Shown here: in pieces, positions 4,068 through 54,240 of the stretch | How positions within the stretch are numbered: position 1 is the first letter of the stretch | How the letters are laid out: every line of letters begins with the position of its first letter | Assembly (NCBI GenBank): GCA_963762865.1 | Contig: CAVXNC010000001.1 | Location: 47,787 to 111,786, forward strand | Source of the DNA: an uncultured Actinomycetota bacterium | GTDB taxonomy: Bacteria > Actinomycetota > Actinomycetes > JACCUZ01 | DNA length: 64,000 nucleotides | Direction of reading: 5' to 3' | The notes under the pieces: model-generated | Databases searched by the model: none | Told to the model about the DNA's origin: nothing | Seen by the model: the letters and a program-made list of their open reading frames with translations, nothing else | Translations under genes and position numbers: made by a program

Positions 4068-5459
4068 ATGCAGCGACCGAGGACCCTGGGCGAGCTGCGG
4101 GCCTCGGGGCACGCACCGAAGTCCGTCAAGCAGGAGATCCGCGACAACCTGGTGGCCAGCCTGGCCTCCGGCGCGCCGCGCTTCGAGGGCATCGTCGGCT
4201 TCGACGAGACGGTGCTGCCGGCGCTGGAGCGGGCCCTGCTGGCCGGCCACGACCTGGTGCTGCTCGGCGAGCGCGGACAGGGCAAGACCCGGCTGATCCG
4301 CACCCTGGTGTCGCTGCTGGACGAGTGGACGCCGGTGGTCGACGGCTGCGAGATCAACGACCACCCGGAGGCCCCGGTCTGCGCGCGCTGCCGGCGGCTG
4401 CACGCCGAGCTCGGCGACGCACTGCCTGTCGGGTGGCGCCACCGCAGCGAGCGGTACGCCGAGAAGCTGGCCACCCCGGACACCAGCGTGGGTGACCTGA
4501 TCGGCGACATCGACCCGGTCAAGGTCGCCGAGGGCCGCACGCTGGGCGACCCCGAGACGGTGCACTACGGCCTGGTCCCGCGCAGCAACCGCGGCATCTT
4601 CGCGATCAACGAGCTACCCGACCTCGCCGAGCGGATCCAGGTGTCGCTGCTCAACGTCCTGGAGGAGCGCGACATCCAGATCCGCGGCTACAACCTGCGG
4701 CTGCCGCTCGACGTGCTGCTGGTGGCCAGCGCGAACCCCGAGGACTACACGAACCGCGGCCGGATCATCACTCCGCTCAAGGACCGCTTCGGCGCCGAGA
4801 TCCGCACCCACTACCCCGACCTGCTCGAGGACGAGGTCGACGTCATCCGGCAGGAGTCGCACCTGGGCGCGCTGGTGCCGGACTTCCTCCTCGAGGTGGC
4901 CGCGCGTTTCGCCCGCAACGTGCGCGAGTCGTCGTCGGTCGACCAGCGCTCAGGGGTCTCGGCGCGCTTCGGCATCGCAGCCGCCGAGACGGTGGCGGCG
5001 TCCGCGTTGCGCCGGTCGGCACTGACCGGCGAGCGGCCCGCCGTCGCGCGGGTCTGCGACCTGCCCGCGACGGTGGCGACCCTGCGCGGCAAGGTCGAGT
5101 TCGAGGTCGACGAGGAGGGCCGCGAGCTCGAGGTGCTGGCACACCTGCTCCGGCGGTCGACGGTGGAGACCTTCCGCGCGCACCTCGGTGCCTCCGACCT
5201 GCGCCCGCTGATCGAGAAGTTCGACGAGGGCCTGGCCGTGAACAGCGGCGACCTCGTGCCGGGGCGGCGACTGCTGGAGCAGGTCGGTCCGCTCCCCGGG
5301 CTGGCGCACGTGCTCGAGCGGCTGGGCGTCGACGAGGGGGCCGAGACCCCCGAGCTCGCCGCGAGCGGGCTGGAGTTCGCCCTCGAGGGCCTCTTCCTCA
5401 ACCGGCGGATCAGCAAGGACGACAGCACCGACGGCGGCATCCGGTACGAGGCCTCGTGA
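4068..5459 (+). CDS. ChlI/BchI-like AAA+ ATPase (Mg-chelatase-subunit-like, mycobacterial Rv0958-type)
   Basis: 463 aa from MQRPRTLG. It has Walker A GERGQGKT, Walker B VLLVASANPEDY, and LKDRFGAEI, which resembles the ChlI LLDRFG motif. The next gene downstream is a VWA protein. Confidence 0.8.
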   Translation: MQRPRTLGELRASGHAPKSVKQEIRDNLVASLASGAPRFEGIVGFDETVLPALERALLAGHDLVLLGERGQGKTRLIRTLVSLLDEWTPVVDGCEINDHPEAPVCARCRRLHAELGDALPVGWRHRSERYAEKLATPDTSVGDLIGDIDPVKVAEGRTLGDPETVHYGLVPRSNRGIFAINELPDLAERIQVSLLNVLEERDIQIRGYNLRLPLDVLLVASANPEDYTNRGRIITPLKDRFGAEIRTHYPDLLEDEVDVIRQESHLGALVPDFLLEVAARFARNVRESSSVDQRSGVSARFGIAAAETVAASALRRSALTGERPAVARVCDLPATVATLRGKVEFEVDEEGRELEVLAHLLRRSTVETFRAHLGASDLRPLIEKFDEGLAVNSGDLVPGRRLLEQVGPLPGLAHVLERLGVDEGAETPELAASGLEFALEGLFLNRRISKDDSTDGGIRYEAS

Positions 5460-5475
5460 GCCGAGGGGGTCGACG

Positions 5476-7474
5476 ATGACGCGGCCGCGGGGCTACCGGT
5501 ACGGCAGCTGGCACGAGGGGCCAGACCCGCTCGCCCCGCCCTACGACGTGCGGCGCGCCCTGGACCGCCTCGGTGACGACGTGCTCACCGGCTCCACGCC
5601 GCGCGACGCCCTGCGCCGGCTCCTGCGCCAGGGCATGGACGGCGACGGCCCGCGCGGTCTCGACGACATGCTCCGGCGGCTGCGCGAGCAGCGGAAGCGG
5701 CTGCGCGAGAGCGGCCGGCTGGACGGCACCCTGCAGGAGGTGCGCCGCCTGATCGACACCGCGGTCGGGCAGGAGCGGTCGGCGCTCTTCCCGGACCCCT
5801 CCGACGACGCGCGCTTCCGCGAGGCCACCCTCGACGCGCTGCCGTCGGACCCGGCCCGCGCCGTGCGCCAGCTGGACTCCTACGACTGGCGGTCGCCGGA
5901 GGCCGCGCAGACCTTCGAGCAGGTGAAGGACCTGCTGCGCCGCGAGGTGCTCGACACCCAGTTCCGGGGCATGAAGCAGGCTCTCGAGAATCCCGACCCG
6001 GCGGCCATGCAGCGCATCAAGGACATGCTGGCCGGCCTCAACGAGATGCTGGCGGCTGATGCCCGGGGTGAGCACACCCAGGAGCAGTTCGACGAGTTCA
6101 TGGCGGCGTACGGCGACATGTTCCCGGAGGACCCGCGCGACCTCGAGGAGCTGGTCGACCTGCTCGCCCGCCGGGCCGCCGCGGCCGAGCGGATGATGCA
6201 GTCGCTCACGCCGCAGCAGCGCGACGAGCTGGCCGCCCTGATGGCCGGCGCGCTCGAGGACATGGACCTGGCCAGCCAGATGTCCCAGCTCGGCGAGGCG
6301 CTGCGCAGCCGGCGACCGGACCTGGACTGGAGCGGCCGGGAGCGGGTTCGCGGCGAGCAGCCGCTCGGCGCGGGTGACGCGACGAGCGCGGTGCAGGACC
6401 TCGCCGACCTCGAGGAGCTCGAGGCGGCGGTCGGCCAGGACTACCCCGGCGCCAGCCTGGAGGACGTCGACGAGGAGGCGGTGCGCCGCGCGCTCGGCCG
6501 CCGGGCCGCCGACGACCTCAGTGAGCTGCGGCGGCTGGAGCGCGAGCTCGAGGAGCAGGGCTACGTCAACCGGACCGGGCGGCCGGCTGCAGCTGACCGC
6601 GAAGGCGATCCGGCGGCTCGGGCAGACCGCGCTGCGCAAGGTCTTCGCCGACCTGCACGCGACGGCGCGAGGCGGCCATGACGTGAACGACGCCGGCCAG
6701 GCCGGTGAGGTCACCGGCGCGAGTCGCCAGTGGCAGTTCGGCGACGAGCAGCCGCTCGACGTCGTGCGCACTCTCACCAACGCGGTGCGGGCCGGGCGGG
6801 CCTCGATCGGCCCTGACGTCACCCGCCGCGGCATCCGGCTGCGGACAGACGACTTCGAGGTGGCCGAGACCGACCGGCGCACGTCGGCAGCCGTGTGCCT
6901 GCTCGTCGACCTCTCCTACTCGATGGTGCTGCGCGACACCTGGGGCGCGGCGAAGGCGACCGCGCTGGCGCTGCACTCACTGGTCAGCGGGCAGTTCCCG
7001 CAGGACGCGCTCACCATCATCGGCTTCTCGTCGTTCGCCCGGACGCTGTCGGCCACCGAGCTCGCCGAGATGGACGCCGACTACGTGCAGGGCACCAACC
7101 TGCAGCACGCGCTGATCCTCGCCGGCCGCTTCCTCGACGAGCACCCGCAGGCCGAGCCGGTGGTGCTCGTGGTGACCGACGGCGAGCCCACCGCGCACCT
7201 GCTCCCGGGCGGGCAGCCGTGGTTCGCCTGGCCGCCGGAGCCGGAGACGATCGAGCTCACCGTGGCCGAGGTCGACCGGATGACCCGACGCGGCGCGGCA
7301 CTCAACGTCTTCGCCCTCGACGACGACCCGCGGCTGCTCGGTTTCATGCAGGAGCTCGCGCGCCGCAACGGCGGACGGGTCCTGCAGCCCGACCCGCGTC
7401 GCCTCGGGCAGTACGTCGTCAGCGACTACCTCTCGCGACGGTCCGGCGGGCGCCGGGGCCGTCGGGCCGGGTGA
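5476..7474 (+). pseudogene. von Willebrand factor A (VWA) domain protein, Rv0959-like, with an apparent +1 frameshift near 6575-6590
   Basis: The N-terminal ~365 aa are in ORF 5476..6681 and end ...LEEQGYVNRTG. The continuation, ...GGRLQLTAKAIRRLGQTALRKVF...VCLLVDLSYSMV...VVLVVTDGEPT (the VWA MIDAS-type motifs), is in ORF 6374..7474. Total length is 1999 nt, which is 1 mod 3. The shift falls in the run ccgggcggccgg. Confidence 0.65.
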
Positions 7475-27247: not shown

Positions 27248-28589
27248 TCAGGTGCCGAGCAGCAGGTCGCGGGTCCGCGGCAGGCCGCTCGCCCCGCCGG
27301 GACCCGGCCGCACCGCCAGGACCTGGTTGACCCCGATCCGGTTGGCCTCGAAGGAGAGCGCCGAGCCGGCCATGTAGAGCTGCCACACCCGCGCACGACC
27401 CTCGGACGTCAGCGCGACCGCCTGGTCCCACGACGACTGCAGGTTGGTGACCCAGCTCCGCAGGGTCAGGGCGTAGTGCTCCCGCAGCGCCTCGACGTCG
27501 CGGACCTCGAACCCCACGTCCTCGAGCACGCCCACCGTCGTCGCCAGGGGCAGCAGCTCGCCGTCGGGGAACACGTAGGCCTCGATGAAGGAGGTGCCGG
27601 CCCGCGAGGGTCCTGGCCGTCGGGAGATCTGGTGGTTGAGCAGCCGGCCACCGGGTGCAAGGAGCCCGTGCAGCCGCCGGGCGTACTCCGCGTAGCCGGC
27701 CTCGCCGACGTGCTCCGCCATCCCGATGCTGGAGATGACGTCGTAGGGGCCGTCGTCGACGTCCCGGTAGTCCTGGACGCGGATCTCGACCCGGTCCGCG
27801 ACCCCGGCACCGGCCAGCCGCTCCCGGGCCAGCGCGGCCTGCGGCTCGGACAGCGTGATGCCGACGCCGCGGATGCCGTAGGTGGTCGCGGCGTGCAGCA
27901 GCATCGAGCCCCACCCGCAGCCGACGTCGAGCATCCGCTTGGAGCTCGCCGTCGACCTTCAGCCCGAGCTTGCGGCAGACCAGGTCGAGCTTGTCGCGCT
28001 GCGCCCCCTCGAGCCCGTCGCCGGGTCCGGACGCGCCTTCCTCGCGCCAGTAGGCGCAGGAGTAGACCATCGACTCCCCGAGCACGAGCCGGTAGAAGTC
28101 GTTGCCGACGTCGTAGTGGTGCGTGACCGACGAGCGGTCGCGGTCCCGGCTGTGGCGTCGCCCGGCGACGACTGCCTCTTCCGGCGGTGGTGCAGGTGCG
28201 CGGCCGATGCCGCCGAGGCGGGCCACGAGTGTGGTCAGCTCGGCCCGCTGCTTGACGGTCAGCGAGCGCGCGTGCGGACGGTCGCCGTCGTCGAGCGGCA
28301 GCGCGCGCAGGATGTCGTAGACGTCGCCCGCGAAGTGCAGGTCGCCACTGATGTACGCCCGGGCCAGGCCCAGCTCGTTGGGCTCGTGCGCCAGTCGCCG
28401 GACCGCGTCCGGCGACTCGACCTCGAGGAGCGGGAAGCTCTCATCACCAGCGGTCGAGCCGTCCCACGCCCGCAGGCGTAGCTGCGGCTGGGTGCCGAGC
28501 ACGAGGGTCAGGATGCGAAGCAGGCTCGCCGCGACCGACGTGCTCTCGCCGGCCCGGCGCTGCCGACCGAGCCCGGTCTGTGTTCTCAC
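27248..28589 (-). pseudogene. cfa: cyclopropane-fatty-acyl-phospholipid synthase (SAM-dependent methyltransferase) with an apparent frameshift near 27935-27950
   Basis: The N-terminal ~215 aa (...HYDVGNDFYRLVLGESMVYSCAYW...KLDLVCRKLGLK) are in ORF 27138..28589. The SAM motif LDVGCGWGS and the rest are in ORF 27248..27934. Length is 1342 nt, which is 1 mod 3. Confidence 0.7.
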
Positions 28590-43723: not shown

Positions 43724-44914
43724 GTGCTGTCGCGTCGATGGAACAGGGTGCACCTTTCCTCCTCGGCCCGCGCCGCGCTGTCCGCCGTGACGAGCGTGCT
43801 GCTGGCGACAGTGGTCGTGGCAACGGCCAGCGCCCCGGCGGACGCCCGGGCACCTCGAGGGGGTGGCAAGTCGCACAAGCCGACGGCGAGTGCCACCGCG
43901 AGTCCGACGGCCAGCTCGTCGCCGAGCCCCAGCCCCACGGCCAGCCCGACGTCGTCCGACACCGCGACGCCAACTGCCTCAGCACCGACCAGCCCGGCCC
44001 CGAGCGGGAGGGTGACCGCCTGCGGCCGGGCCCTCTGCCTGGACGGGAGGGTGTGGCGCCTGCACGCCGCCTCGGTGCTCGGCGCGCTGGACCGACCGAG
44101 GGACACGGTGACGCTGGCCGTGCAGGCCCGGCTGAACACGGTCCGCGTCACGGACTGGCTCGACACGTCGGGAAGTCCGGCGACGGCGGCGTACGACGAG
44201 ACCCGCTGGCGGCGTCTGGACGCGCTGGTGGCTGCGGCCGGCGACGGCGGCCTGCACGTGGTGCTCGACCTGTCGACCTACCGCAACCTGCTGGCGCGCA
44301 ACGGCATCAACCCCTACACCTACGACTGGGCGCCCTTCCTCACCTGGGTGGCGGGCCGGACCAACACGGTGAGCGGTGTGCGCTACGGCACGGACCCGAC
44401 CATCGCCCTGGTGAGCTTCGCCGGCGAGGTGGAGCCGCCCAACGGGTCTGACAACACTCTCGGTGTGACGACGACCCAGGTCACGACCTTCTTCGACAAG
44501 GTCTTCAGGCTGTGGGGCACGCTCAGTCCCGGGACGCTGCGGAGCACCGGCGGGCTGCTGCAGCTGGACTGGGGCTCCGGCGTCGACTGGAAGGCGATCA
44601 TGGCACTGCCCGGCAGCGACGTGTGCGCCATCCACACCTACTCCGACGCGGACCGCCTGGTCACCCTGCCGGCGGTGAGCACGTACTGCGGCGCCCTGGG
44701 CCGGCCGTGGATCGACGAGGAGTTCGGCTTCGAGCTGGGGATGGGCGACGCCGCGCGGGCCACGGCGATGACGGACACCTACCGCCGGGTGGCCGCCGCG
44801 GACGGCGCCGGGGCAGGGATCTGGAACCTCGGCTTCCAGGTCACCAGCCCCACCTACGACGTCAACACGGCCACCCCGTTGGCCTTCGACGCCGTTCGCA
44901 CGGCCGCTCCCTGA
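43724..44914 (+). CDS. secreted glycoside hydrolase, GH5-like (cellulase/mannanase-type TIM barrel), with an STP-rich linker
   Basis: The GTG start gives a signal peptide ...LLATVVVATASAPADA, then a PTASATASPTASSSPSPSPTASPTSS linker. Candidate catalytic motifs are FAGEVEPPNG (acid/base, NEP-like) and PWIDEEFGFELG (nucleophile, TEfG-like). It is convergent with the glycosyltransferase operon. Confidence 0.5.
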   Translation: MLSRRWNRVHLSSSARAALSAVTSVLLATVVVATASAPADARAPRGGGKSHKPTASATASPTASSSPSPSPTASPTSSDTATPTASAPTSPAPSGRVTACGRALCLDGRVWRLHAASVLGALDRPRDTVTLAVQARLNTVRVTDWLDTSGSPATAAYDETRWRRLDALVAAAGDGGLHVVLDLSTYRNLLARNGINPYTYDWAPFLTWVAGRTNTVSGVRYGTDPTIALVSFAGEVEPPNGSDNTLGVTTTQVTTFFDKVFRLWGTLSPGTLRSTGGLLQLDWGSGVDWKAIMALPGSDVCAIHTYSDADRLVTLPAVSTYCGALGRPWIDEEFGFELGMGDAARATAMTDTYRRVAAADGAGAGIWNLGFQVTSPTYDVNTATPLAFDAVRTAAP

Positions 44915-44918
44915 CTCC

Positions 44919-46615
44919 TCAGCGCCGCGACGTGGTCCTCGGCGTGACCCGGTAGAGCCGCCAGTCCCGGCCTTCCACGACAGGGTTGCGGAACTCCTTG
45001 ACGAGGGTCGCGATGCCGGCGCCGTCGGCGTAGAGGGACGGATGGGCGACGGTGAGCGCGTCGTAGCCGGCCTGCGCCGACACCAGCAGGTAGCGGACCC
45101 GGCCGAGCCGCGGGTCGGCGAGCAGCTTGGGGAAGTCCCGGTCCGGCGTGATCACGAACTGCCGGGCGTGGTCCGAGGCCAGGAAGATCTCGAAGCCGGA
45201 GGCCAGATCCATCAGGACGCTGCCCTCCGGCAGGTGGCGGGCGTCCAGGTATGCGGCGACCCTGCGGTCCGTGCCTGCCCACCCCAGCCGGCTGGTCGGT
45301 TCGTCGCGACCTTCGAGGCTGGCCAGCACGCTGCCGCCCTGCGGCACGTCTTCTGGGGCGAGCCGGGCGTCGGAGACCGCCCGCGGGACGGTCACCCACG
45401 GGGGCACCGCCACCGCGAGGACGGCGAGCGTGGCCGCGACGGGAGCGAGCAGCCGCAGCAGGCGACGACCGCGCAGTGGCCCTGGCAGCCCCTGGGCCAG
45501 GTGCCCGGCAGCGAGGACGCCGAGCGGGACGACGTAGACCTGGAACCGCAGCCAGCCGAAGGTCTGCCCGCTCAGGGCCAGGCCGGCAGAGATCGCCACG
45601 GTGCCACCGAGCACTGCCAGTGCGGCCGCGAAGCGGATGTCACGTCGGACCAGCGCGAGCAGCACCGCTGCCACGACGAGCGCCCAGGCGACCGGCTGCA
45701 AGGCCGCCATCTGGTCCAGCACCGGCGGCAGCGCACCTTCCCCGCCGTACATCGTCCGCTGGGCGGAGTTGCCGTACTGCGAGCTGAGCTGCTCGAAGGG
45801 GTGCCCCACGACGACGAAGCTGGTGACGGCGAACAGCACAGCCCCTACGACGGCCGGCAGCGCGACCACCAGCACATCGCACACCGCCGCATCGACACGG
45901 GCCCGCCGACGACCCGCCGTGCGGACGGCCGTGACGGTCGCGACGAGCAAGGTCGCTCCCGCGACCGCACCGACCGCCTCGTAGCGCGTGAGGTACGCGA
46001 GCGCGAGGGCGAGCCCGGCGTGGGCAAGGTCCGTCGAGTGGTCGTGGCGCAGCCACCGGGCGAGCGATTTGGTCGCAGCGAGAAGCCACAGGAGGAGCAG
46101 CGCCTCGGTCATGCCGTTGGCGCCGTACAGCAGCACGATAGGGGTGGGCCGCGAACGAGACCACCAGACCCCAACGCGCGGCCCTGGCCCACACCCAGGT
46201 CCTGGAGGTAGCCGCGGACGACGACCGCTCCGGCCGCCGCAGCCACCGCGCTCTGCAGGCTGATGACGAGGCCGGTTTCCATGATCCCCGGGACGACCCG
46301 CCCGACCAGCACGAGAGGCAGCAGCAGCAGCGACGGCAGGGGGCTCCACACGAAACCCAGGGCGGCGAGCTTGGGGTCCCGGCCGTCGAGGACCGCCTTG
46401 GCGTTGGCGACCCGGGAGACGCTGTCACCCATCAGCGAGTCGAATCCCACGACCAGCACGAGCGCGAGGACGAGCTCGACGGTGAGGACGGTCGCGAAGA
46501 CCACCCACGGCTCCGTCCACCTTCGGCGACGGTGCTCCGCACCGGTGGTGCCGACAGGGCCCCGGTCGGGGACCTCCGCCTGGGGGGTCCTCGTCGGCAG
46601 CTGGAGCAGGGTCAT
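44919..46615 (-). pseudogene. polytopic membrane protein, putative GT-C-type glycosyltransferase, with apparent frameshift(s) near 46130-46170
   Basis: The N-terminal ~150 aa (MTLLQLP...FATVLTVELVLALVLVVGFDSLMGDSVSRVANAKAVLDGRDPKLAALGF...) are in ORF 46109..47515. The rest (...IVLLYGANGMTEALLLLWLL..., many transmembrane segments plus a ~200-aa C-terminal soluble domain) is in ORF 44919..46349. A third frame bridges the two for about 15 codons. The ATG overlaps the GT2 stop as ATGA. Length is 1697 nt, which is 2 mod 3. Confidence 0.5.
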
Positions 46616-48087
46616 CGCCGCTCCGCGGGGCTGGCGTGGTCGAGACCGTGCACCGTCTTCTCCCAGAACGACGGCGCCGTGACCATCTGCACCGCGGCCT
46701 TCGCCGCGGCCGCCGACATCAGCACCCAGTAGGCGGGCAGCAGCAGCAGGCTCCTGGCCAGCGATGCCCGACCGCACTCGCGGGCCGCGAGCAGCGAGCA
46801 GTAGACCGAGCCGGTGAGCCCGCCCAGCCAGACGAGCATCTCGAGGTGGTAGAGCGGGCTCGGGAAGATGGCTGCCAGCTGCGACGAGCCGGAGAGCAGG
46901 TAGAACAGGCTCAGCGTCCACAGCACCGGGTTCAGCAGCGCGAGCAGCGGCGTCCCGCCGACGAAGAGCAGGAAGCCGGCCGTCCCCCGCGGGCCGAGCT
47001 CGTCGACCAGACGACGGGGGTCGCGGGTGTGCACCAGCAGGGTCTGCAGATAGCCCTTGTACCAGCGACTGCGCTGCTTGACCCAGTTGACGACGTCGCT
47101 GTTCGCCTCCTCCAGCGTCACGCTGTCGAGCACCCGCACCCCGAAGCCCGCGCGGGCCAGCCGCACGCCGAGATCCGCGTCCTCGGTCACGTTGTACGGG
47201 TCCCAGGCGCCGATGCGCTCGAGCACCTTGCGGCGGATGTGGTTGGACGTGCCCCCCAACGGGATCGGGTGGCCGGCCCGGACGAGCCCGGGCAGCCAGA
47301 ACCGGAACCACACGTCGTACTCGTTGGTGAACCAGCGGGTGAGCAGGTTCTGCTCGGCGTTGTGGTAGGCCAGCCGGGCCTGCAGGCAGGCCACGTGCGG
47401 CGGCAGCCTGCTGAAGGCGACGGCGGCGCGGCGCAGCTGCAGCGGGTCCGGCCGGTCCTCCGCGTCGTAGATCGTCACCAGCGAGCCGCGGGCGCACATC
47501 AGGCCGACGTTGCACGCCTTGGGTTTGGTCCGTGGCTCGCGGACGGCGATGCCGACGGGCGTGACGTAGGGCGGCAGGTCCAGGTCGACGAGAGCTTCGA
47601 ACGTCTCCTCGTCGTCGTCCTCGACGAGGAGAAGCACCTCGAGACGGTTTCGTGGGTAACTGATGCGGTCGATCTCCTCGAGCACCCGGCCGACCATCGT
47701 GGGCTCGCGGTAGACCGGCACGAGCACCGTGTAGACGGGCAGGTTGCGTCGAGGGAAGCCGCGCGCTTCAGCGTCACTGACCGACTCCATCTCGACGCTG
47801 CGCAACGAGCCGGTGAAGAGCACGACTCGGTGCCACAGCACCGCGGCGTGGGCGGCGGTCACGAGTGCCACCAGCACGGTCGCGGTGGCGAGCGGCACGA
47901 CGGCGAAGCCGATGAACAGGACAAGGCCGACGCAGACGACCGTCAGACGCTGCACGCGCGACCAGCCGCGCTGCGCGGACAGGCCGGGATTCCTGCGGTC
48001 GAGCGACTCGCTGGCCAGCTCGGCGATCGCATCCGGCGACAGCGAGCGGACTCCCCGGACCCGGGCCCGCGCCGGCGAGAGCCTCAC
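46612..48087 (-). CDS. processive family-2 glycosyltransferase (cellulose/chitin/hyaluronan-synthase-like)
   Basis: 491 aa. It has 2 N-terminal transmembrane helices, a GT-A catalytic domain with the DAED and QRSRWYKG (QxxRW) motifs, and about 4 C-terminal transmembrane helices. Confidence 0.8.
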   Translation of the reverse strand: MRLSPARARVRGVRSLSPDAIAELASESLDRRNPGLSAQRGWSRVQRLTVVCVGLVLFIGFAVVPLATATVLVALVTAAHAAVLWHRVVLFTGSLRSVEMESVSDAEARGFPRRNLPVYTVLVPVYREPTMVGRVLEEIDRISYPRNRLEVLLLVEDDDEETFEALVDLDLPPYVTPVGIAVREPRTKPKACNVGLMCARGSLVTIYDAEDRPDPLQLRRAAVAFSRLPPHVACLQARLAYHNAEQNLLTRWFTNEYDVWFRFWLPGLVRAGHPIPLGGTSNHIRRKVLERIGAWDPYNVTEDADLGVRLARAGFGVRVLDSVTLEEANSDVVNWVKQRSRWYKGYLQTLLVHTRDPRRLVDELGPRGTAGFLLFVGGTPLLALLNPVLWTLSLFYLLSGSSQLAAIFPSPLYHLEMLVWLGGLTGSVYCSLLAARECGRASLARSLLLLPAYWVLMSAAAAKAAVQMVTAPSFWEKTVHGLDHASPAERR

Positions 48088-48854
48088 GGACCGTCCGCCC
48101 GGAGCCGGACCACGCCGTCGCTGCTGACGGAACGGCTGTCCTGCAGGGTGACGAGCCCGCGACCTACCGTCGTCAGCAGCCGACCGACTGCCGCGACGCG
48201 GTCTCCGGTCGTGGCGTTGTGCGTCACGACCGACTTCACGACAGGTGAAGGGACACCGCCGGACGAGTCGAGCACCGGCACGACGCGCTGTCGGGTGTCG
48301 ACCATCAGCAGGACCACGCGCTCGTACTCGGTGCGACCGTCGGCACTGGTGACCGGGCGTTCCCAGTGCAGTGCCGTCCAGTCCCTGCCGTCACGCGGGT
48401 CGAAGTACGAGAGCAGTGTGCCGCGGACGGCCGGGCTGAGCCGTACCTCGCGGGACGAGCGGACGTCGAAGCCGTGGAACGAGTAACACGCCTCGATGCT
48501 GTAGGTCCTCATCCGCAGCAGGCTCGGCGTGGTGACGACGTCCGTCAGGATCGAGGCGGACTGCCGGTCCCCGAGCAGCTCGCCGCTGATGGTGCCTGGC
48601 GACAGCGAGAGCAGACTGCGATGCCACGTGGACGCCGACCCGAAGTACTGGGTTGCCCACGGGATGGAGCCGAGCGCTGCAGTCGAGAAGCCGGGCAGAG
48701 CCACCGGCTGGTCCGCGTACGACGCGACGTCGGCGCCACCAACGGGGTCGCCGAGCCCGGCAACAGCTGCCAGCCTGCTGTTCGCTCCCGCGCCGACGAC
48801 GACTCCCACGACCAGCACAGCTGCCCCTAAGACGGGCACCGGTCGCCGTGCCAC
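48084..48854 (-). CDS. exosortase-associated EpsI-like periplasmic protein (putative)
   Basis: 256 aa. It has an N-terminal transmembrane/signal segment RRPVPVLGAAVLVVGVVVGA, then a beta-rich soluble domain. It sits between the exosortase and the GT2 gene and overlaps both by 4 nt. Confidence 0.4.
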   Translation of the reverse strand: MARRPVPVLGAAVLVVGVVVGAGANSRLAAVAGLGDPVGGADVASYADQPVALPGFSTAALGSIPWATQYFGSASTWHRSLLSLSPGTISGELLGDRQSASILTDVVTTPSLLRMRTYSIEACYSFHGFDVRSSREVRLSPAVRGTLLSYFDPRDGRDWTALHWERPVTSADGRTEYERVVLLMVDTRQRVVPVLDSSGGVPSPVVKSVVTHNATTGDRVAAVGRLLTTVGRGLVTLQDSRSVSSDGVVRLRADGP

Positions 48855-49836
48855 CTGGCGCCGGGTGGCTGCAGGCGTCGCCGGCTCGCGCCGGCCGGCG
48901 AATGCGAGGCCGAAGTCTTCGCAGCCGCCAGAGCATCACCGCGATCCCGATGTTGCTGAGCACCAGCCCGAGCACTGGGTGCAGGACCTCCATGGCCGCT
49001 GCGAGTCCCCACTGCCCGGCGACGAGGAAGAGCACCAGGACCCGCAGCAGGTTCAGCATCCAGGCGAGCGCGGTACCGCAGATCAGCCAGCAGAGCTTCC
49101 GCCTGGCCGGCCCCTGGGTGAGGCCCATCAGCAGGGACCCGACCACCAGGTAGCTCACCGTGCCGTTGAGACCGGCACAGGCGCTCGCGACGCTGAGCCG
49201 GATCGCCTCCCCGCCGTGGTCCACGGTGAACAGCGAGCCGTCCGAACCGGCGGCCTGCTGGGCGAGCCCCAGCGGCGCGGCCAGTGCGGCGACCGCGGAG
49301 GTCGTGGCCGTGGCCACCTGGTCCTGGACCAGGGAGAGCAACCGGGACCAGGGCATCGGCCAGGCGAGGAACAGCATTGCGAGCCCGAAGCGGACACGCC
49401 ACATGGTCCGCACCCCGAGAAGGACCGCCGTCGCGCCGGCCGCGAAGAGCGGCAGCAGCAGGAGATCGAGACGCAGCAGCCAGAAGGTGTCCCCGAGCCG
49501 GTGCTGCAGGACCAGCTGGCCGACGAGGGACACGGCGATCAGCGGGCCGCCGACGATCAGGTCCAGCTGACGGTCCTCGATGTCCGGCTCGTGCACGCGT
49601 CGCCGGGCGCGGACGGCTGCGATGACCACCGCCCCGCCCGGGACCAGCCCGAGGTAGGCGAGCGGCGAGTCGATGAGCAGGGCCTCGCCGAGCTGGCGGA
49701 GCGTGACGTGGAAGGCCACGACGCAGGCGAGGACCACAGCGGCTCCGAGAGCCGCCGGTCGCCAGGCCGGCTCGTCGCGCGCGGGCGTCCCGACAGCACC
49801 AGCTGTCGGGACGCCCGCTCCCTGGGGGGGACTCAC
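48855..49836 (-). CDS. exosortase-family transpeptidase; the 3' end is unresolved because the ORF continues to 48391 in a frame overlapping the EpsI-like gene
   Basis: The N-terminal 308 codons (49836..48912) are polytopic. They carry the conserved Cys in VASACAGLNG, the Arg in LNLLRVLVLF and the Asn in LSNIGIAV, which is the exosortase/archaeosortase triad context. Beyond ...MLWRLRRL the frame is Arg-rich noise. This is either an exosortase-EpsI fusion with an indel, or an overlapping stop. Confidence 0.6.
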
Positions 49837-49854: not shown

Positions 49855-50461
49855 TCAGGCTGCGAGGGCCGGACCACCGCTGGCGCGGCGGCGCCAGAGG
49901 AAGAACCCGAGCGGCGACGAGAGCTCCCGAGACCGGAAGCAGGATCGCGATGGACGCCTCGGGAATGACCGGCGGCGACGAGATGTCGACGCACAGGATG
50001 TTGCTCTTGTCGGTGAAGCCGACCGCTGAGGCATCCGTTCCGGACACTGCTGCCCGGTCGCACACCGTGTCGTCCGGGCTCGCCTCGACGGTGAAGGTCG
50101 TCGTCCCCGACGAGCCGGTCCCGTCCGCGGTGAAGTCGACGTCCTTCTCGTCCGAGCCGACGAGCGTCTCGCCGTTGTAGGCGCCGTTGCCGTCGGAGTC
50201 GATCCAGATGCAGTCGCGGAGGCGGTACGAGCCGGGCGCCCGGTCGACGTAGACGGAGTACGTGAGCGTGTAGGTCCCGTCACCGTTGTCGACCAGGCTG
50301 ACAAGACTCTTGTCGGCCAGGTTCTCCTCGCCGGCCTGGCCGGACAGGACGCCGGCGCAGGACGTGGTGGAGTCCTCGGCGCTGGCGGGTCCCGCCAGCA
50401 GGGTGGCGCTGCCCAGGACCGTGGCAAGCACGGCCAGCAGCGCGATGAGCAGTCGTCTCAT
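49855..50461 (-). CDS. secreted PEP-CTERM-like exosortase cargo protein (signal peptide plus C-terminal PEA-TM-RRR sorting signal); the C-terminus needs a 1-nt frame change
   Basis: It has the signal peptide MRRLLIALLAVLATVLGSATLLAGPASA and a ~170-aa Thr/Gly/Asp-rich domain with 4 Cys. It then reads ...SSPPVIPEASIAILLPVSGALVAA. The adjacent frame supplies ...LGFFLWRRRASGGPALAA followed by a stop at 49855. Length is 607 nt, which is 1 mod 3. Confidence 0.5.
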
Positions 50462-50763: not shown

Positions 50764-51382
50764 ATGAGACGCGCGACCGTCCGCTGTGTCGTCGCGGACG
50801 CTTCGCCGCTGGTCGTCGCCGGCCTGCGCACCGTCTTGGTCGAGCACGGGTTCGGCACGCCGGTCGCCGAGGCCGATCAGCCGCGACGCGCCGTCGAGGT
50901 GACCCGTCGGGTCAAGCCCGACATCCTCCTGTGCGGTCTCGGCCCGCTCGCCGCCACGTTCAGCATCGCCGAGCAGGTCGCCCCGGTCCCGGTCCTGGCG
51001 CTTGTCTGGACCTGCACCCGGTCGCGAGGCAGCGGAGGCCATCACCGCCGGAATCGGCGGACTGGCGCTCAAGGGCGCGCCGGTGCAGCACCTCGGTACG
51101 GCGATCGCCGCAGTGATGGGCGGAGCAACGCCTGTCCCACGGGCGGCGAGCTACGAGGCACCCGTCGAGCTCCGCGGCGTGCAGCGCCTCACGAGTCGCG
51201 AGGCCGCCGTCGTCGAGCTGGTGTCCAGCGGCCTGAGCAACACCCAGATCGCCGGCCGGCTGGGCATCGCGCCGCAGACCGTCAAGAACCACCTCCGCTC
51301 CGCGATGGGCAAGCTCGGCGCCCACAGCAGGGTCGAGGTGTGTCTCTGGACGGGCAAGCGGCCGGCCATGGAGCTCGCCTGA
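50764..51382 (+). pseudogene. NarL/LuxR-family response regulator (REC plus HTH) with an apparent frameshift near 50995-51005
   Basis: REC N-terminus MRRATVRCVVADASPLVVAGLRTVLVEHGF...DILLCGLGPLA...PVPVLAL is in ORF 50686..51390. REC C-terminus plus the LuxR HTH (...AITAGIGGLALKGAP...LTSREAAVVELVSSGLSNTQIAGRLGIAPQTVKNHLRSAMGKLGA) is in ORF 51002..51382. Length is 619 nt, which is 1 mod 3. Confidence 0.65.
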
Positions 51383-51453: not shown

Positions 51454-54240
51454 GTGGTGGGTGTCGACGAGCAGGCTGCGTCTCGCGGGAGCGAGCAAGC
51501 AGCGTTGCGCGAGAGCGAGCAGGCGGCGTTGCGCGCCGACGTGCGCCGCCTCGGCAACCTGCTCGGCGAGAGCCTGGTGCGCCAGGAGGGTCCCGAGCTC
51601 CTGGCGCTCGTCGAGGAGGTCCGGCACCTCAGCCGTGGCGACGTACCGGCTGGCGCGCAGCAGGGGGCAGGCCGTGGCGACCTGGCCGCACTCCTGGAGG
51701 GGGTCGACACCGCGACCGCGGCGCTGCTGGTGCGGGCGTTCGGGACCTACTTCCACCTGGCCAACGTGACCGAGCAGGTCCACCGGGCCCGGGCCATGCG
51801 CGACGAGCGGCGACTCAAGGGCGGCTGGCTGGCGCAGACCGCCGAACGCGTCCGCGCGGCCGGACTGCCCGCCGACGAGGTGGCCGACCTGGTGGCCCGC
51901 CTCGCCGTGCGGCCGGTCTTCACGGCGCACCCGACCGAGGCGGCCCGCCGGTCGATCCTGTCGAAGCGGCGGCGGGTCGCCGAGCTGCTCGACGCTCCCG
52001 ACGACCCGCGGATCGACCGGCGGCTCGCCGAGGTCATCGACCTGCTCTGGCAGACCGCCGAGCTCCGCCTCGACCGGCCCGAGCCGCTCGACGAGGCGCG
52101 CAACGCCGCCTACTACCTCGACGAGCTGATGCTGCACACCGTCGGCGACGTGCTCGAGGACCTGGCCGACGAGCTGACCGGCCTCGGTGTGGACCTGCCG
52201 GCGACCGCGCGGCCGCTGCGCTTCGGCAGCTGGATAGGCGGCGACCGCGACGGCAACCCCAACGTCACACCCGACGTGACCCGTGACGTCCTGGTCCTGC
52301 AGCACGGCCACGCCATCCGCGACCTCCAGCAGGTCGTGACCGAGCTCCTCGAGGACCTGTCGTCGTCGCAGCGCATGATCGGCGCGAGCGACGCGCTGGT
52401 GGCCAGCATCGAGGCGGACCTGGCCGCGCTCCCCGAGCTGGACCCGAGGGTGCGCCGGATCAACGCGGACGAGCCCTACCGGCTCAAGGGCCGCTGCATC
52501 GGGCTGAAGCTGGAGAACACCCGGGTGCGCATCGCGGCCGGCGCCGAGCACCGGCCGGGTCGCGACTACCTCGGCAGCGAGTCACTCCTCGACGACCTGC
52601 TGGTGATGCGCGACTCGCTGGCCGAGCACAAGGGCCAGCTGCCGGCGACCGGCCGCCTGGACCGGGTGATCCGCGTGGTCGCCGCCTTCGGCCTGCACCT
52701 TGCCACCCTCGATGTCCGCGAGCACGCCGACGCGCACCACCACGCGCTGGCGCAGCTCTTCGACCGGCTCGGCGAGCTGTCGTGGCGCTACGCCGACCTG
52801 CCGCGCGGCGACCGCTTCGCGCTGCTCGGCCGCGAGCTCGCCAGCCGGCGTCCGCTGGGCTCCGGACCGGCGCAGCTCGACGACGCCGGTGCCCGCACGC
52901 TCGAGGTCTTCACGACCGTGCGCGACGCGATGGACACCTTCGGGCCGGAGGTGTGCGAGAGCTACATCGTGTCGATGACCCGGGGCGCCGACGACGTGCT
53001 GGCCGCGGTGGTCCTGGCGCGCGAGGCCGGGCTCGTCGACGTGCACCGCGACGTCGCGCACATCGGCTTCGTGCCGCTGCTGGAGACGGTCGGGGAGCTG
53101 CGGGAGGCCGGCCGGGTGCTCGACGAGCTGCTCTCCGACCCGTCCTACCGGCGGCTGGTGGCCGCGCGGGGCGACGTGCAGGAGGTGATGCTCGGCTACT
53201 CCGACTCCAACAAGGAGGCCGGGATCACGACGTCCCAGTGGGAGATCCACCGGGCCCAGCGACAGCTGCGCGACGTGGCCGGGTCCCACGGCGTACGCCT
53301 GCGCCTCTTCCACGGCCGAGGCGGGACGATCGGCCGCGGCGGCGGGCCGACGCACGACGCGATCCTCGCCCAGCCGTGGGGCACCCTCGACGGCGAGCTC
53401 AAGGTGACCGAGCAGGGCGAGGTGATCTCGGACAAGTACTCGCTGCCGGCGCTCGCCCGCGAGAACCTCGAGCTGACGCTCGCGGCCACCCTCGAGGCGA
53501 CGCTGCTGCACCGCGAGCCACGGACGACCGGAGACGCGCTCCGGCGCTACGACGACGTCATGGACAGCCTGTCGTCGGCGGCGCAGGACGCCTACCGCGG
53601 GCTGGTGGAGCACCCCGACCTGCCGGCCTACTTCGTGCAGTCGACCCCGGTGGAGCTGCTGACCGACCTCAACATCGGGTCGCGCCCGTCGCGCCGGCCG
53701 GACAGCGGGACCGGGCTGTCCGGCCTGCGGGCGATCCCGTGGGTCTTCGGCTGGACCCAGTCCCGCCAGGTGGTGCCGGGGTGGTTCGGTGTCGGGTCCG
53801 GCCTGGCCGCCGTCCGCGCTGCCGGGCTCGGCGACACCCTCGACGAGATGTACGACGGCTGGCACTTCTTCCGGACGTTCCTGTCCAACGTCTCGATGAC
53901 CCTGGCCAAGACCGACCTGCGCATCGCCGGCCACTACGTCGACACCCTGGTCGACCCGGACCTGCGGCACGTGTTCGACCTGGTGCGCCAGGAGCACGAC
54001 GTGACGATCCGCGAGGTGCTCGCCGTGACCCGCGAGGGCTCGCTGCTCGGGTCCAACCCTCTGCTGGCGCGGACCCTCCAGGTCCGCGACGCCTACCTGG
54101 ACCCGATCAGCTACCTGCAGGTGTCCCTGCTGCGCCGCTGGCGAGCCGGCGCCGCGACGGCGGAGCCGGACCCGCGGGTGCGCCAGGCCCTGCTGCTGAC
54201 CGTCAACGGCATCGCCGCCGGCCTCCGCAACACCGGCTGA
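51454..54240 (+). CDS. ppc: phosphoenolpyruvate carboxylase
   Basis: 928 aa. It has the VFTAHPTE motif, the Gly-rich [14 protein letters not shown] loop, and the canonical C-terminus ...GLRNTG. It is intact. Confidence 0.95.

What the first reader, a model, noticed from the sequence alone, without database searches (positions are those of the whole stretch)
49855..50461. Single dedicated cargo: small Cys-containing secreted protein whose PEA-TM-RRR sorting tail is split across two frames
Frame A gives a signal peptide (MRRLLIALLAVLATVLGSATLLAGPASA), a ~170-aa Asp/Gly/Thr-rich beta-type domain with 4 Cys, and then ...SSPPVIPEASIAILLPVSGALVAA. Frame A then runs on with no stop for more than 1 kb. 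The +1 frame continues LGFFLWRRRASGGPALAA and reaches a stop at 49855.

Joining them gives a textbook PEP-CTERM architecture: PEA, a ~21-aa Gly/Ala/Leu transmembrane helix, an RRR cluster, a short tail and a stop. It lies immediately upstream of the exosortase.

So either a 1-nt indel disrupts the sorting signal, which would leave an unsorted, possibly inactive cargo, or the sequence contains an error. A single cognate substrate next to its sortase is the pattern seen for dedicated exosortase/archaeosortase systems.
Basis: partly seen in the sequence, partly recalled or inferred. Interest (0 to 1): 0.7.

Follow-up and report, generated by a model that had tools for sequence, protein, structure and literature searches.

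The report
Exosortase cargo gene, probable assembly frameshift
A small secreted surface-protein gene beside its membrane sorting enzyme is broken by one extra base that all related sequences covering the site lack, most likely an assembly error in a public metagenome genome; the intact gene belongs to an uncatalogued actinobacterial version of the exosortase protein-sorting system.

Summary
The minus-strand gene starting at ATG 50461 encodes a signal peptide, a beta-sandwich domain and ...PPVIPEAS-IAILLPVSGALVA. It then loses its frame, and the TM end, RRR and stop (49855) lie in the +1 frame. The cause is one extra C at 49911. Three related contigs that cover the site lack it, and the 93%-identical orthologue P0001 reads straight through (...GALVAVGFFLWRRRASGGPALAA*).

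It is not an isolated event. The regulator (51026), exosortase (48916) and 564-aa membrane protein (46185, 46136) also carry window-specific 1-nt insertions, and a CMAS gene is split at ~27,940. With the extra bases removed, every broken gene shows purifying selection (dN/dS 0.05-0.22), even downstream of the breaks. The run-on 544-aa product is on record from a 153.7-kb public MAG contig. The most likely cause is consensus error (~0.7); recent real inactivation is ~0.2.

The system is real: an exosortase fused to a Mog1/PsbP-like domain, found in Actinomycetota, Chloroflexota and Dormibacterota. Its cargo tails read [VI]PE[AVS][PS]..LLP-TM-RRR. They follow the PEP-CTERM design but fail every curated sorting-signal model. 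"Single dedicated cargo" is only partly supported.

The parts
49912..50461 (-). Cargo CDS, part 1 (frame of ATG 50461). Signal peptide aa 1-28 (50378-50461). Ig/FN3-like beta-sandwich aa ~49-159 (49985-50317). Linker, PPVIPEAS motif and the first 13 residues of the TM segment.
49911..49911 (-). The extra base (C on the coding strand) that splits the sorting tail. It is not in a homopolymer.
   Evidence: absent from L001, L002 and L083. P0001 and P0216 translate through the site.
49855..49910 (-). Cargo CDS, part 2 (+1 frame): (V)GFFLW-RRR-ASGGPALAA and stop TGA 49855-49857.
49952..49975 (-). Signature motif of the sorting signal, PPVIPEAS. P-E is invariant across the family.
   Evidence: P10 and E11 invariant in 33 tails.
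49885..49951 (-). TM segment (IAILLPVSGALVA|VGFFLW), interrupted by the insertion, followed by RRR.
   Evidence: alignment. (helix at residues 167-194 in the model of the orthologue).
49781..49818 (-). Perfect 17-bp stem / 4-nt loop hairpin between the cargo stop and the likely exosortase start. Candidate attenuator or mRNA-stabilising element (inferred).
   Evidence: MFE -61.9 kcal/mol, z -3.8. (kept in L001 and L002, with one U-A to U-G change).
48084..49836 (-). Exosortase fused to a C-terminal extracytoplasmic domain (550 aa in intact relatives). In the window it is split by an extra A at 48916, with a further -1/+1 pair at 48862/48853.
   Evidence: family scores. (intact 550-aa orthologue; indels). 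(invariant Cys187, Arg232, His253). (Mog1/PsbP-like C-domain).
46612..48087 (-). Family-2 glycosyltransferase, 491 aa. The only locus gene left unbroken.
   Evidence: PF13632 85 bits, PF13641 79 bits. (dN/dS 0.16-0.20).
44919..46615 (-). 564-aa polytopic membrane protein with weak PMT_2/GT-C-like similarity. Broken by extra bases at 46185 and 46136.
   Evidence: PMT_2 19 bits, below cutoff. (insertions absent from four relatives).
50764..51382 (+). Divergently transcribed LuxR/GerE-type response regulator. Broken by an extra base at 51026.
   Evidence: GerE 64 bits.. (frame switch at 51024 with no stop for 364 nt).

Best explanation
What the gene is. It encodes a Sec-exported, roughly 170-residue Ig-like beta-sandwich surface protein that ends in a tripartite sorting signal (PPVIPEAS motif, TM helix, RRR). 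The signal is recognised by the exosortase encoded immediately downstream.

How it works (by analogy with archaeosortase A, not shown here). The polytopic Cys/Arg enzyme cleaves at the motif at the outer face of the membrane and transfers the protein to a surface acceptor. That acceptor is possibly a product of the co-encoded GT2 and GT-C-like glycosyltransferases.

Why the tail is split. There is one extra C at 49911. It is one of at least six window-private frame-breaking single-base insertions, five of them in this locus. Selection signatures show the genes were functional essentially up to the present. The sequence is a deposited metagenome-assembled contig. The extra base is therefore most probably a consensus error, not biology.

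Shown: gene structure, the insertion, intact orthologues, the enzyme family, the association between tail and enzyme, and purifying selection.
Inferred: cleavage and anchoring, the acceptor, and the technical origin of the insertion.
For: - The insertion is absent from three independent related contigs, and orthologues are intact.
- Other window-private +1 insertions lie at 51026, 48916, 46185 and 46136. They are absent from L001, L002 and L083, and the last three also from L086.
- A CMAS gene is split at ~27,940; its two pieces match PF02353 positions 1-61 and 66-273.
- With the inserted bases removed, dN/dS is 0.05-0.22 in the broken genes, the same as in the unbroken GT2 and flanking genes.
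- Downstream of each break, substitutions stay biased to the third codon position of the ancestral frame: 4/2/18, 11/10/40 and 1/0/6.
- The exact 544-aa run-on product is on record from a 153,694-bp NCBI/ENA contig, so this is a deposited MAG.
- A sister long-read-style contig of the same population has abundant single-base indels outside homopolymers (34 of 53), and another has its own frameshift in this same gene (P0004).
- Enzyme: TIGR04178 and PF09721 pass, with invariant Cys, Arg and His.
- Tail-enzyme association: 86 of 10,635 true C-termini match the tail pattern, against 3 of 19,595 internal control windows.
- 33 of 73 loci have a tailed ORF ending 99-620 bp upstream of the exosortase on the same strand, 31 of them within 305 bp.
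- The tails sit on unrelated passenger domains; only 1 of 86 is homologous to this cargo.
- Mechanistic precedent: PMC9263693 and bioRxiv 10.1101/2023.06.07.544157.
Against: - Five of the six or seven detected frameshifts fall within 4.9 kb of a 64-kb window. Uniform random error does not predict that, whereas decay of one locus would.
- All are insertions and none lies in a homopolymer, which is not the commonest long-read error type.
- The window's substitutions look biological (third-position biased), so the assembly is not generally noisy.
- No reads were available, and no second contig of the window's own strain, so the error was not observed directly.
- Cleavage, the acceptor and surface anchoring are untested for any member of this subfamily.
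Confidence: 0.7

Rival explanations
1. Genuine, very recent inactivation of the whole locus in this strain. Real single-base insertions knocked out the regulator, cargo, exosortase and membrane glycosyltransferase, for example under selection to lose a surface structure, or as neutral decay after a first hit.
For: - The breaks cluster in one functional unit: five in 4.9 kb, with flanking mfd, PEPC and other genes unbroken.
- The frameshifted product is what is deposited.
- The rest of the window is mostly clean.
Against: - There is no excess of non-synonymous change in the broken genes (pooled Nd/Sd 64/136, vs 10-13/23 in the unbroken GT2), and no loss of codon-position bias downstream of the breaks.
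- Five neutral indels would normally come with dozens of neutral substitutions (my estimate from general knowledge of bacterial pseudogenes).
- In this locus six extra bases and one missing base (48862) separate the window from its relatives, whereas bacterial pseudogenes usually show a deletion bias (general knowledge).
- At least one identical-type break lies 18 kb away in an unrelated gene.
Confidence: 0.22
2. Programmed +1 ribosomal frameshifting or another recoding event joins the two frames, so the split is a regulatory feature.
For: Only that the two frames join into a sensible protein.
Against: - The extra base is absent from every relative that covers the site, and all of those encode the tail in a single frame.
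- The site GCC-GCU-CGG-GUU has no slippery or stop-codon context of the kind known for +1 frameshifting (by inspection and general knowledge).
- Four neighbouring breaks in other genes would each need their own recoding site.
Confidence: 0.02
3. The frame-A run-on (544 aa) is the true product and the protein has no sorting tail.
For: A public gene caller called exactly this product (P0215).
Against: - GC3 of frame A collapses to 0.35-0.6 beyond ~49,800, while the exosortase frame rises to 0.9-0.97.
- All nine full-length homologues end 30-36 residues after the motif.
- The run-on overlaps the exosortase gene.
Confidence: 0.02
4. The tail is only a C-terminal membrane anchor, or a sortase (LPXTG-type) signal, and is not processed by the exosortase.
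For: - Many related tails give sub-threshold to marginal hits to the LPXTG_anchor model through their TM-Arg part (20 of 33 at E<=10).
- No processing data exist for this subfamily.
Against: - There is no LPXTG-like motif; the invariant residues are P-E.
- The motif abuts the TM segment with no spacer, as described for signals cut by membrane-embedded enzymes.
- Positional linkage to the exosortase is strong, and the tail is shared by unrelated passenger domains.
Confidence: 0.04

Closest known systems
PEP-CTERM / exosortase (XrtA/EpsH) systems of outer-membrane-bearing bacteria
   Same: - Polytopic EpsH-type enzyme (PF09721 and TIGR04178 pass).
- Cargo with an N-terminal signal peptide and a C-terminal motif-TM-Arg signal, the motif abutting the TM segment.
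- Embedded in a glycosyltransferase/EPS-type locus with a LuxR-family regulator.
- The tail is shared by unrelated passenger proteins.
   Different: - Scores far below the XrtA cutoff (54 vs 208 bits) and below every named Xrt subtype.
- The tails fail TIGR02595. The motif is [VI]PE[AVS][PS] plus a conserved LLP, not PEP.
- The enzyme is fused to an extra TM helix and a Mog1/PsbP-like outer domain.
- Hosts are Actinomycetota, Chloroflexota and Dormibacterota, whereas PEP-CTERM is described for lineages with an outer membrane.
- There are one to a few cargos near the enzyme, rather than the 20 or more per genome described there; whole genomes were not examined here.
Archaeosortase A (ArtA) / PGF-CTERM of Haloferax volcanii
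   Same: - Homologous enzyme superfamily, with conserved Cys and Arg residues.
- Tripartite signal.
- It is the only member with experimental proof of cleavage plus C-terminal lipid attachment (PMC9263693), so it is the mechanistic model used here.
   Different: - Archaeal, with a PGF motif and a lipid acceptor known there but unknown here.
- The ArtA model scores 16.8 vs cutoff 75.
- No fused C-terminal domain.
Dedicated one-to-one sorting systems (enzyme and single target as adjacent genes), as defined by Haft
   Same: - Cargo directly upstream of the enzyme on the same strand.
- Seen in the window, in its close relatives and in 33 of 73 related loci.
- Only one tailed ORF in the 64-kb window.
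   Different: - 17 of 54 tail-positive related loci carry 2-5 tailed ORFs, and the passengers are mostly unrelated. Family-wide, the pairing is therefore not strictly one-to-one.
- Genome-wide cargo counts are unknown.
XrtG (Gram-positive exosortase family) with its associated GT2 glycosyltransferase
   Same: Exosortase homologue in monoderm-type bacteria, next to a family-2 glycosyltransferase.
   Different: - XrtG model 18.4 bits vs cutoff 102.75; XrtG-associated GT2 model 23 vs 364.
- XrtG is a short protein (187-position model) with no fused domain.
EpsI partners or fusions of exosortases
   Same: An extracytoplasmic domain attached to or partnered with the exosortase. That EpsH-EpsI fusions exist is my recollection and was not tested.
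   Different: - The C-domain matched no Pfam or NCBIfam family. Its fold matches are Mog1/PsbP-like.
- Relationship to EpsI was not established.

Membership tests
PEP-CTERM sorting domain (TIGR02595) | Score at or above the curated cutoff (16 bits) of the PEP_CTERM model | tested here: not met
   The repaired window tail gives no hit at E<=10 (member 1). Orthologue tails score 10.1 and 14.9 bits. Only 10 of 33 family tails hit at E<=10, best E 0.018.
PEP-CTERM sorting domain (TIGR02595) | Tripartite architecture at the extreme C-terminus: signature motif abutting a TM segment, then an Arg cluster | tested here: met
   After removing base 49911: PPVIPEAS + IAILLPVSGALVAVGFFLW + RRR + 9 aa + stop. 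A helix at 167-194 appears in the model of the orthologue.
PEP-CTERM sorting domain (TIGR02595) | Pro-Glu-Pro signature | tested here: not met
   This protein has P-E-A-S. In 33 family tails P-E is invariant, followed by A, V or S and then usually P.
PEP-CTERM sorting domain (TIGR02595) | N-terminal signal peptide on the same protein | tested here: inconclusive
   MRRLLIALLAVLATVLGSATLLAGPASA|ED has the n-h-c and AxA layout by inspection. No signal-peptide predictor was available.
PEP-CTERM sorting domain (TIGR02595) | Host with a periplasm and outer membrane (as described) | tested here: not met
   The closest named Prs relatives are 'Actinomycetes bacterium' MAGs. The enzyme subfamily occurs in Actinomycetota, Chloroflexota and Dormibacterota. 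Envelope type is inferred from taxonomy only.
Exosortase/archaeosortase superfamily (TIGR04178, PF09721) | Pass the curated thresholds of the signature models | tested here: met
   TIGR04178 50.6 bits vs 23; PF09721 76.7 vs 25.7. The intact orthologue scores 46.0 and 73.2.
Exosortase/archaeosortase superfamily (TIGR04178, PF09721) | Conserved catalytic Cys and Arg (critical in ArtA: Cys173, Arg214, Arg253) | tested here: met
   Cys187, Arg232 and His253 are invariant in 26 subfamily members. They are present in the window ORF (ASACAG, LLRVLV, LHPVLG). Residue-by-residue equivalence to ArtA was not aligned.
Named exosortase subtypes (XrtA-XrtY, CrtA/C, ArtA/C) | Score at or above the subtype's curated cutoff | tested here: not met
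   The best is XrtA at 54 vs 208 bits. All 20 subtype models fall far below their cutoffs.
Dedicated (one-to-one) sorting system | Enzyme and target encoded by consecutive genes | tested here: met
   The cargo stop at 49855 lies 18-118 nt before the exosortase start. 33 of 73 related loci show the same arrangement.
Dedicated (one-to-one) sorting system | Only one protein with the signal per genome | not testable with these tools
   Only 64 kb of this genome is available, with one tailed ORF in it. Related loci of <=21 kb hold 1 (37 loci) or 2-5 (17 loci) tailed ORFs.
EpsI family (exosortase partner) | Match of the fused C-terminal domain to an EpsI/DUF3485 model | tested here: not met
   No Pfam or NCBIfam hit beyond the EpsH domain at E<=0.1 and E<=10 respectively. 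The fold is Mog1/PsbP-like.

The most novel reading that the evidence does not exclude
The five single-base insertions outside homopolymers, confined to this 4.9-kb operon, are real. They would record a very recent, locus-targeted shut-down of a surface-display system in a soil actinomycete: regulator, cargo, sorting enzyme and glycosyltransferase all hit while the flanking genes are untouched. That would imply either strong selection to shed the structure (for example phage or predator pressure) or a localised insertion-prone mutational process.

Separately, and much more probably (about 0.7), the intact system is an undescribed exosortase class of monoderm-type phyla with its own sorting signal.
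Probability: 0.15. Interest if true: 0.55.

Novelty: new variant of a known kind. Interest (0 to 1): 0.33.

Why it matters
The frameshift itself matters mainly as a warning.
- A public MAG carries a 544-aa chimeric 'protein' that is really a 201-aa cargo run into its neighbour.
- Sister assemblies carry other breaks in the same gene.
- Databases of this small family (10 homologues among 5.8 billion proteins) are therefore already contaminated with artefacts.

The system underneath is more interesting.
- Exosortase/PEP-CTERM sorting is described as a trait of outer-membrane-bearing bacteria.
- Here a coherent subfamily (84 or more proteins, 80 genomic loci) in Actinomycetota, Chloroflexota and Dormibacterota pairs a domain-fused exosortase with a distinct tail class ([VI]PE[AVS][PS]..LLP-TM-RRR).
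- No curated model recognises that tail, so these surface proteins are currently annotated as hypothetical, or risk being mislabelled as LPXTG proteins.
- A dedicated HMM pair would fix the annotation.
- The compact cargo-enzyme-glycosyltransferase operon is a tractable place to ask what acceptor a bacterial exosortase attaches its substrates to, which remains unknown for bacteria.

Tried and rejected
- GC3 periodicity could not decide the frame of the 60-nt tail (0.78 vs 0.83 by hand). Homologues decided it.
- Curated sorting-signal models gave nothing above cutoff.
- The HMM-style frame tracker flagged 59034/59118, 44010, 34234, 31589 and 10738. On inspection these are normal gene junctions or are contradicted by gap-free alignment to L002. 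The tracker also missed the cargo break because it is close to the gene end, so its sensitivity is imperfect.
- L083 was too noisy to serve as a reference for the rest of the window (207 indels in 21 kb).
I could not see its record, technology or coverage.
- The genome-collection scan found no relative closer than 43% identity, so no named close genome was available.
- Literature searches found no description of an actinobacterial system of this type. The 2012 archaeosortase/exosortase paper is not held. Absence from this library is not proof of novelty.
- Programmed frameshifting was considered and rejected because the site is not conserved and has no recoding context.
- Local GC content does not explain the cluster (0.71-0.72, as elsewhere).

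Full report
**Observation.** On the minus strand, ATG 50461 (preceded by GGAGG) opens a frame that encodes a signal-peptide-like N-terminus and an Asp/Gly/Thr-rich region with four Cys, followed by ...SSPPVIPEASIAILLPVSGALVAA. This frame continues without a stop to 48827, giving 544 aa. The +1 frame reads LGFFLWRRRASGGPALAA and stops at 49855-49857. Third-position GC in the ATG frame is 0.85-1.00 from 50458 to about 49980. It then falls to 0.35-0.6, while the frame of the next gene rises to 0.9-0.97. The body is therefore coding and the run-on is not. The tail itself is too short for this test.

**What splits the gene.**
- A search of 5.8 billion proteins found only ten homologues.
- Nine are full length (197-263 aa). 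All nine read through the junction in one frame, with a conserved PPV[IV]PE[AS] motif, a hydrophobic segment and RRR.
- The closest, P0001 (93% identity, 201 aa), ends ...PPVIPEASLAILLPVSGALVAVGFFLWRRRASGGPALAA.
- Its contig L001 and two further related contigs, L002 and L083, align to the window at 93-96% nucleotide identity. All three lack one base, the C at window 49911 in GTCGCCG[C]TCGGG.
- Removing it restores ...GALVA-VGFFLWRRR...

**The break is not peculiar to the cargo.** Relative to the same contigs, the window has further private single-base insertions, none of them in a homopolymer:

| Position | Gene | Notes |
|---|---|---|
| 51026 | divergent LuxR/GerE response regulator | |
| 48916 | exosortase | plus a -1/+1 pair at 48862/48853 |
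| 46185, 46136 | downstream 564-aa membrane protein | |

- A fourth sample, L086 (JGI), is 99.55% identical to L001 with no gaps. It lacks the extra bases at 48916, 46185 and 46136.
- In the intact relatives the exosortase is a single 550-aa protein. In the window it appears as a 481-aa ORF plus a 256-aa ORF in another frame.
- Only the GT2 gene of the locus is unbroken.
- A GC-periodicity frame tracker over the whole window, followed by inspection, found one unambiguous split elsewhere. A CMAS-type methyltransferase breaks at ~27,935-27,940, and its two pieces match PF02353 positions 1-61 and 66-273.
- One further split is probable, at ~6,576.
- Other tracker flags were normal gene junctions.
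- All detected shifts are in the +1, insertion-like direction.

**Error or biology?**
- With the extra bases removed, the window-versus-L001 comparison gives dN/dS of 0.05 (regulator), 0.20 (cargo), 0.13 (exosortase; 0.10 for the part downstream of its break) and 0.22 (564-aa gene). The unbroken GT2 gives 0.16-0.20 and the flanking genes 0.17-0.33.
- Downstream of each break, substitutions remain concentrated at the third position of the ancestral frame: 4/2/18, 11/10/40 and 1/0/6.
- There is therefore no detectable period of relaxed selection. The breaks are either extremely recent or not real.
- The window's exact run-on product (P0215, 544 aa) and its GT2 (P0217) are on record at NCBI and ENA from one 153,694-bp contig. 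The sequence is thus a deposited metagenome-assembled contig, and the frameshift was taken at face value by a gene caller.
- The closest named Prs relatives are 'Actinomycetes bacterium' MAGs.
- Sister contigs with long-read-style names show the same kind of damage. L002 has its own deletion in a G run of this very gene (protein P0004). L083 differs from the clean short-read-style L001 by 56 indels in 8.1 kb, and 34 of its 53 single-base indels lie outside homopolymers.
- I therefore favour consensus error (about 0.7).
- The main argument against is clustering: five breaks within 4.9 kb, with flanking mfd, PEPC and other genes intact. A local coverage trough or strain mixture could explain that, and the cargo has the highest dS of the locus genes (0.19). 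That explanation is inference, and I could not see the reads.
- Real, very recent inactivation of the whole locus remains possible (about 0.2).
- Programmed frameshifting is excluded for practical purposes, because the site is not conserved and has no recoding context.

**What the system is.**
- The neighbour passes the generic exosortase/archaeosortase models (TIGR04178 50.6 vs 23 bits; PF09721 76.7 vs 25.7). It falls far below every named subtype, the best being XrtA at 54 vs 208.
- The intact 550-aa form has 84 detected homologues of about 510-640 aa. Sources name them only 'exosortase/archaeosortase family protein'.
- Cys187, Arg232 and His253 are invariant, and the C-terminal half carries an invariant EACYxFHGY-type motif.
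- An AlphaFold model (pLDDT 79.9) shows the helical EpsH core, an extra TM helix, an alpha/beta domain and a final helix.
- Downstream lie a membrane GT2 and a polytopic protein with weak PMT_2/GT-C similarity.

**The sorting signal.**
- One scan of species-representative genomes returned 80 loci with this fused exosortase (32-43% identity). They come from Actinomycetota (Acidimicrobiia, Frankiales, Microthrixaceae, and Aquihabitans sp. McL0605 as a complete genome), Chloroflexota and Dormibacterota.
- Six-frame ORFs in these loci were screened for a P-[ED] motif, 13-28 hydrophobic residues and a basic cluster near the stop. This matched 86 of 10,635 true C-termini, against 3 of 19,595 internal control windows.
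- The consensus of 33 tails is xPxVPEAPxAxLLPxxGxxxxGxxxxxxRRRR, with P-E invariant.
- In 33 of 73 loci with enough upstream sequence, a tailed ORF ends 99-620 bp (31 of them within 305 bp) before the exosortase on the same strand.
- Only one of the 86 passengers (L014, also adjacent to its enzyme) is homologous to this cargo's body. The tail is thus a portable module on unrelated proteins, which is one of Haft's criteria for a true sorting signal.
- The tails nevertheless fail the curated models. The repaired window tail hits nothing at E<=10. TIGR02595 reaches E<=10 in only 10 of 33 tails. The commonest weak hit is the TM-Arg part of the LPXTG anchor model.
- The architecture is therefore PEP-CTERM-like, but membership was tested and not met.

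**Mechanism (inferred).** In Haloferax, archaeosortase A cleaves a tripartite PGF-TM-basic signal, and the substrate then receives a C-terminal lipid. The conserved Cys173, Arg214 and Arg253 are required (PMC9263693). By analogy:
1. The cargo is exported by Sec and held by its C-terminal helix.
2. It is cleaved at or near PE|AS by the adjacent enzyme.
3. It is transferred to an acceptor that is unknown for bacterial exosortases. The co-encoded glycosyltransferases make a surface glycan a plausible candidate.

A perfect 17-bp hairpin at 49781-49818, between the cargo stop and the exosortase, is retained in the relatives with a U-A to U-G change. It could raise the cargo-to-enzyme expression ratio. 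That role is untested.

**'Single dedicated cargo'.** Within the 64-kb window this is the only ORF with the motif in any frame. Close relatives show one cargo in 8-21 kb. Family-wide, loci of up to 21 kb hold one tailed ORF in 37 cases and two to five in 17 cases, and 26 of 82 loci have none within reach. The claim is plausible for this lineage but unproven, and it does not hold for the subfamily as a whole.

**Novelty and score.** The split tail is most likely an artefact and scores low on its own. The underlying system is a variant of a known kind.
- It has an exosortase-type enzyme with an unusual fused domain.
- Its hosts are phyla usually regarded as lacking an outer membrane, whereas PEP-CTERM is described for outer-membrane-bearing lineages.
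- Its tail class is not captured by NCBIfam release 20 or Pfam.
- I found no description in the searchable literature, which is weak negative evidence.

Overall interest is 0.33.

Noticed in passing
window 49781-49818 (minus strand): Perfect 17-bp stem / 4-nt loop hairpin (GGGCGUCCCGACAGC...) 37 nt after the cargo stop and before the likely exosortase start. MFE z-score is -3.8. It is kept in L001 and L002 with a U-A to U-G change, and no U-tract follows. It also lies inside the N-terminal extension of the GTG-49836 ORF, which suggests the true exosortase start is further downstream.
   Followed up: partly
window ~27935-27940 (minus strand; ORFs 27941-28589 and 27248-27934): A cyclopropane-fatty-acyl-phospholipid/mycolic acid synthase (CMAS) gene is split between two frames. 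The two pieces match PF02353 positions 1-61 and 66-273. The shift is in the +1 (insertion-like) direction, as in the exosortase locus.
   Followed up: yes
window ~6576 (plus strand; 5458-6576 and 6577-7432): Probable further +1 frame switch without a stop (next stop of the old frame is 103 nt on). It lies between a DUF445-like N-terminal part and a VWA_2 domain part. It was not confirmed with homologues.
   Followed up: partly
window 48853-48916 (minus strand): Besides the +1 at 48916, the exosortase linker has a -1 at 48862 and a +1 at 48853 relative to four related contigs. This gives three indels in 63 nt in the low-confidence linker between the EpsH core and the C-domain, with a net shift of +1.
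   Followed up: partly
window ~51479-51526 (plus strand, N-terminus of PEP carboxylase): The window has an in-frame 24-nt direct duplication relative to L001, seen in the protein as ...[16 protein letters not shown]... It lies in a region where the PEPC N-terminus is otherwise much more diverged from L001 (dS 0.25) than the neighbouring genes.
   Followed up: no
L001:3801-4625 (= window 48084-48912), exosortase C-terminal half: The unannotated ~280-aa C-terminal domain has a Mog1/PsbP-like fold, a near-invariant EACYxFHGY motif (C417, Y418, F420, H421) and a final TM helix. It matches no Pfam or NCBIfam family. Whether it is related to EpsI was not established.
   Followed up: partly
L002:977-1603 (P0004) and L083 (whole locus): Public gene calls for this small protein family include other artefacts. 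P0004 is the same cargo frameshifted by a deletion in a G5 run. L083 has prs, L25, PEPC, the exosortase, GT2 and mfd all fragmented.
   Followed up: yes
tails of cargo ORFs in L003-L082 (alignment A3): 20 of 33 tails give weak hits (best E 5e-4) to the LPXTG_anchor model through their TM-Arg part, although they have no LPXTG motif. This creates a risk of mis-annotation as sortase substrates.
   Followed up: partly
L019 (Aquihabitans sp. McL0605, NZ_CP188252.1 887075-908559): This complete genome carries the fused exosortase but has no tail-bearing ORF within 10 kb on either side. In some members, therefore, the cargo is encoded elsewhere.
   Followed up: no
window 43881-44895 (plus strand) / L002:6519-7421: A GH5-like (cellulase family, sub-threshold 21 bits) secreted-type protein is encoded convergently at the end of the locus. 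It may be part of the same surface-glycan module.
   Followed up: no
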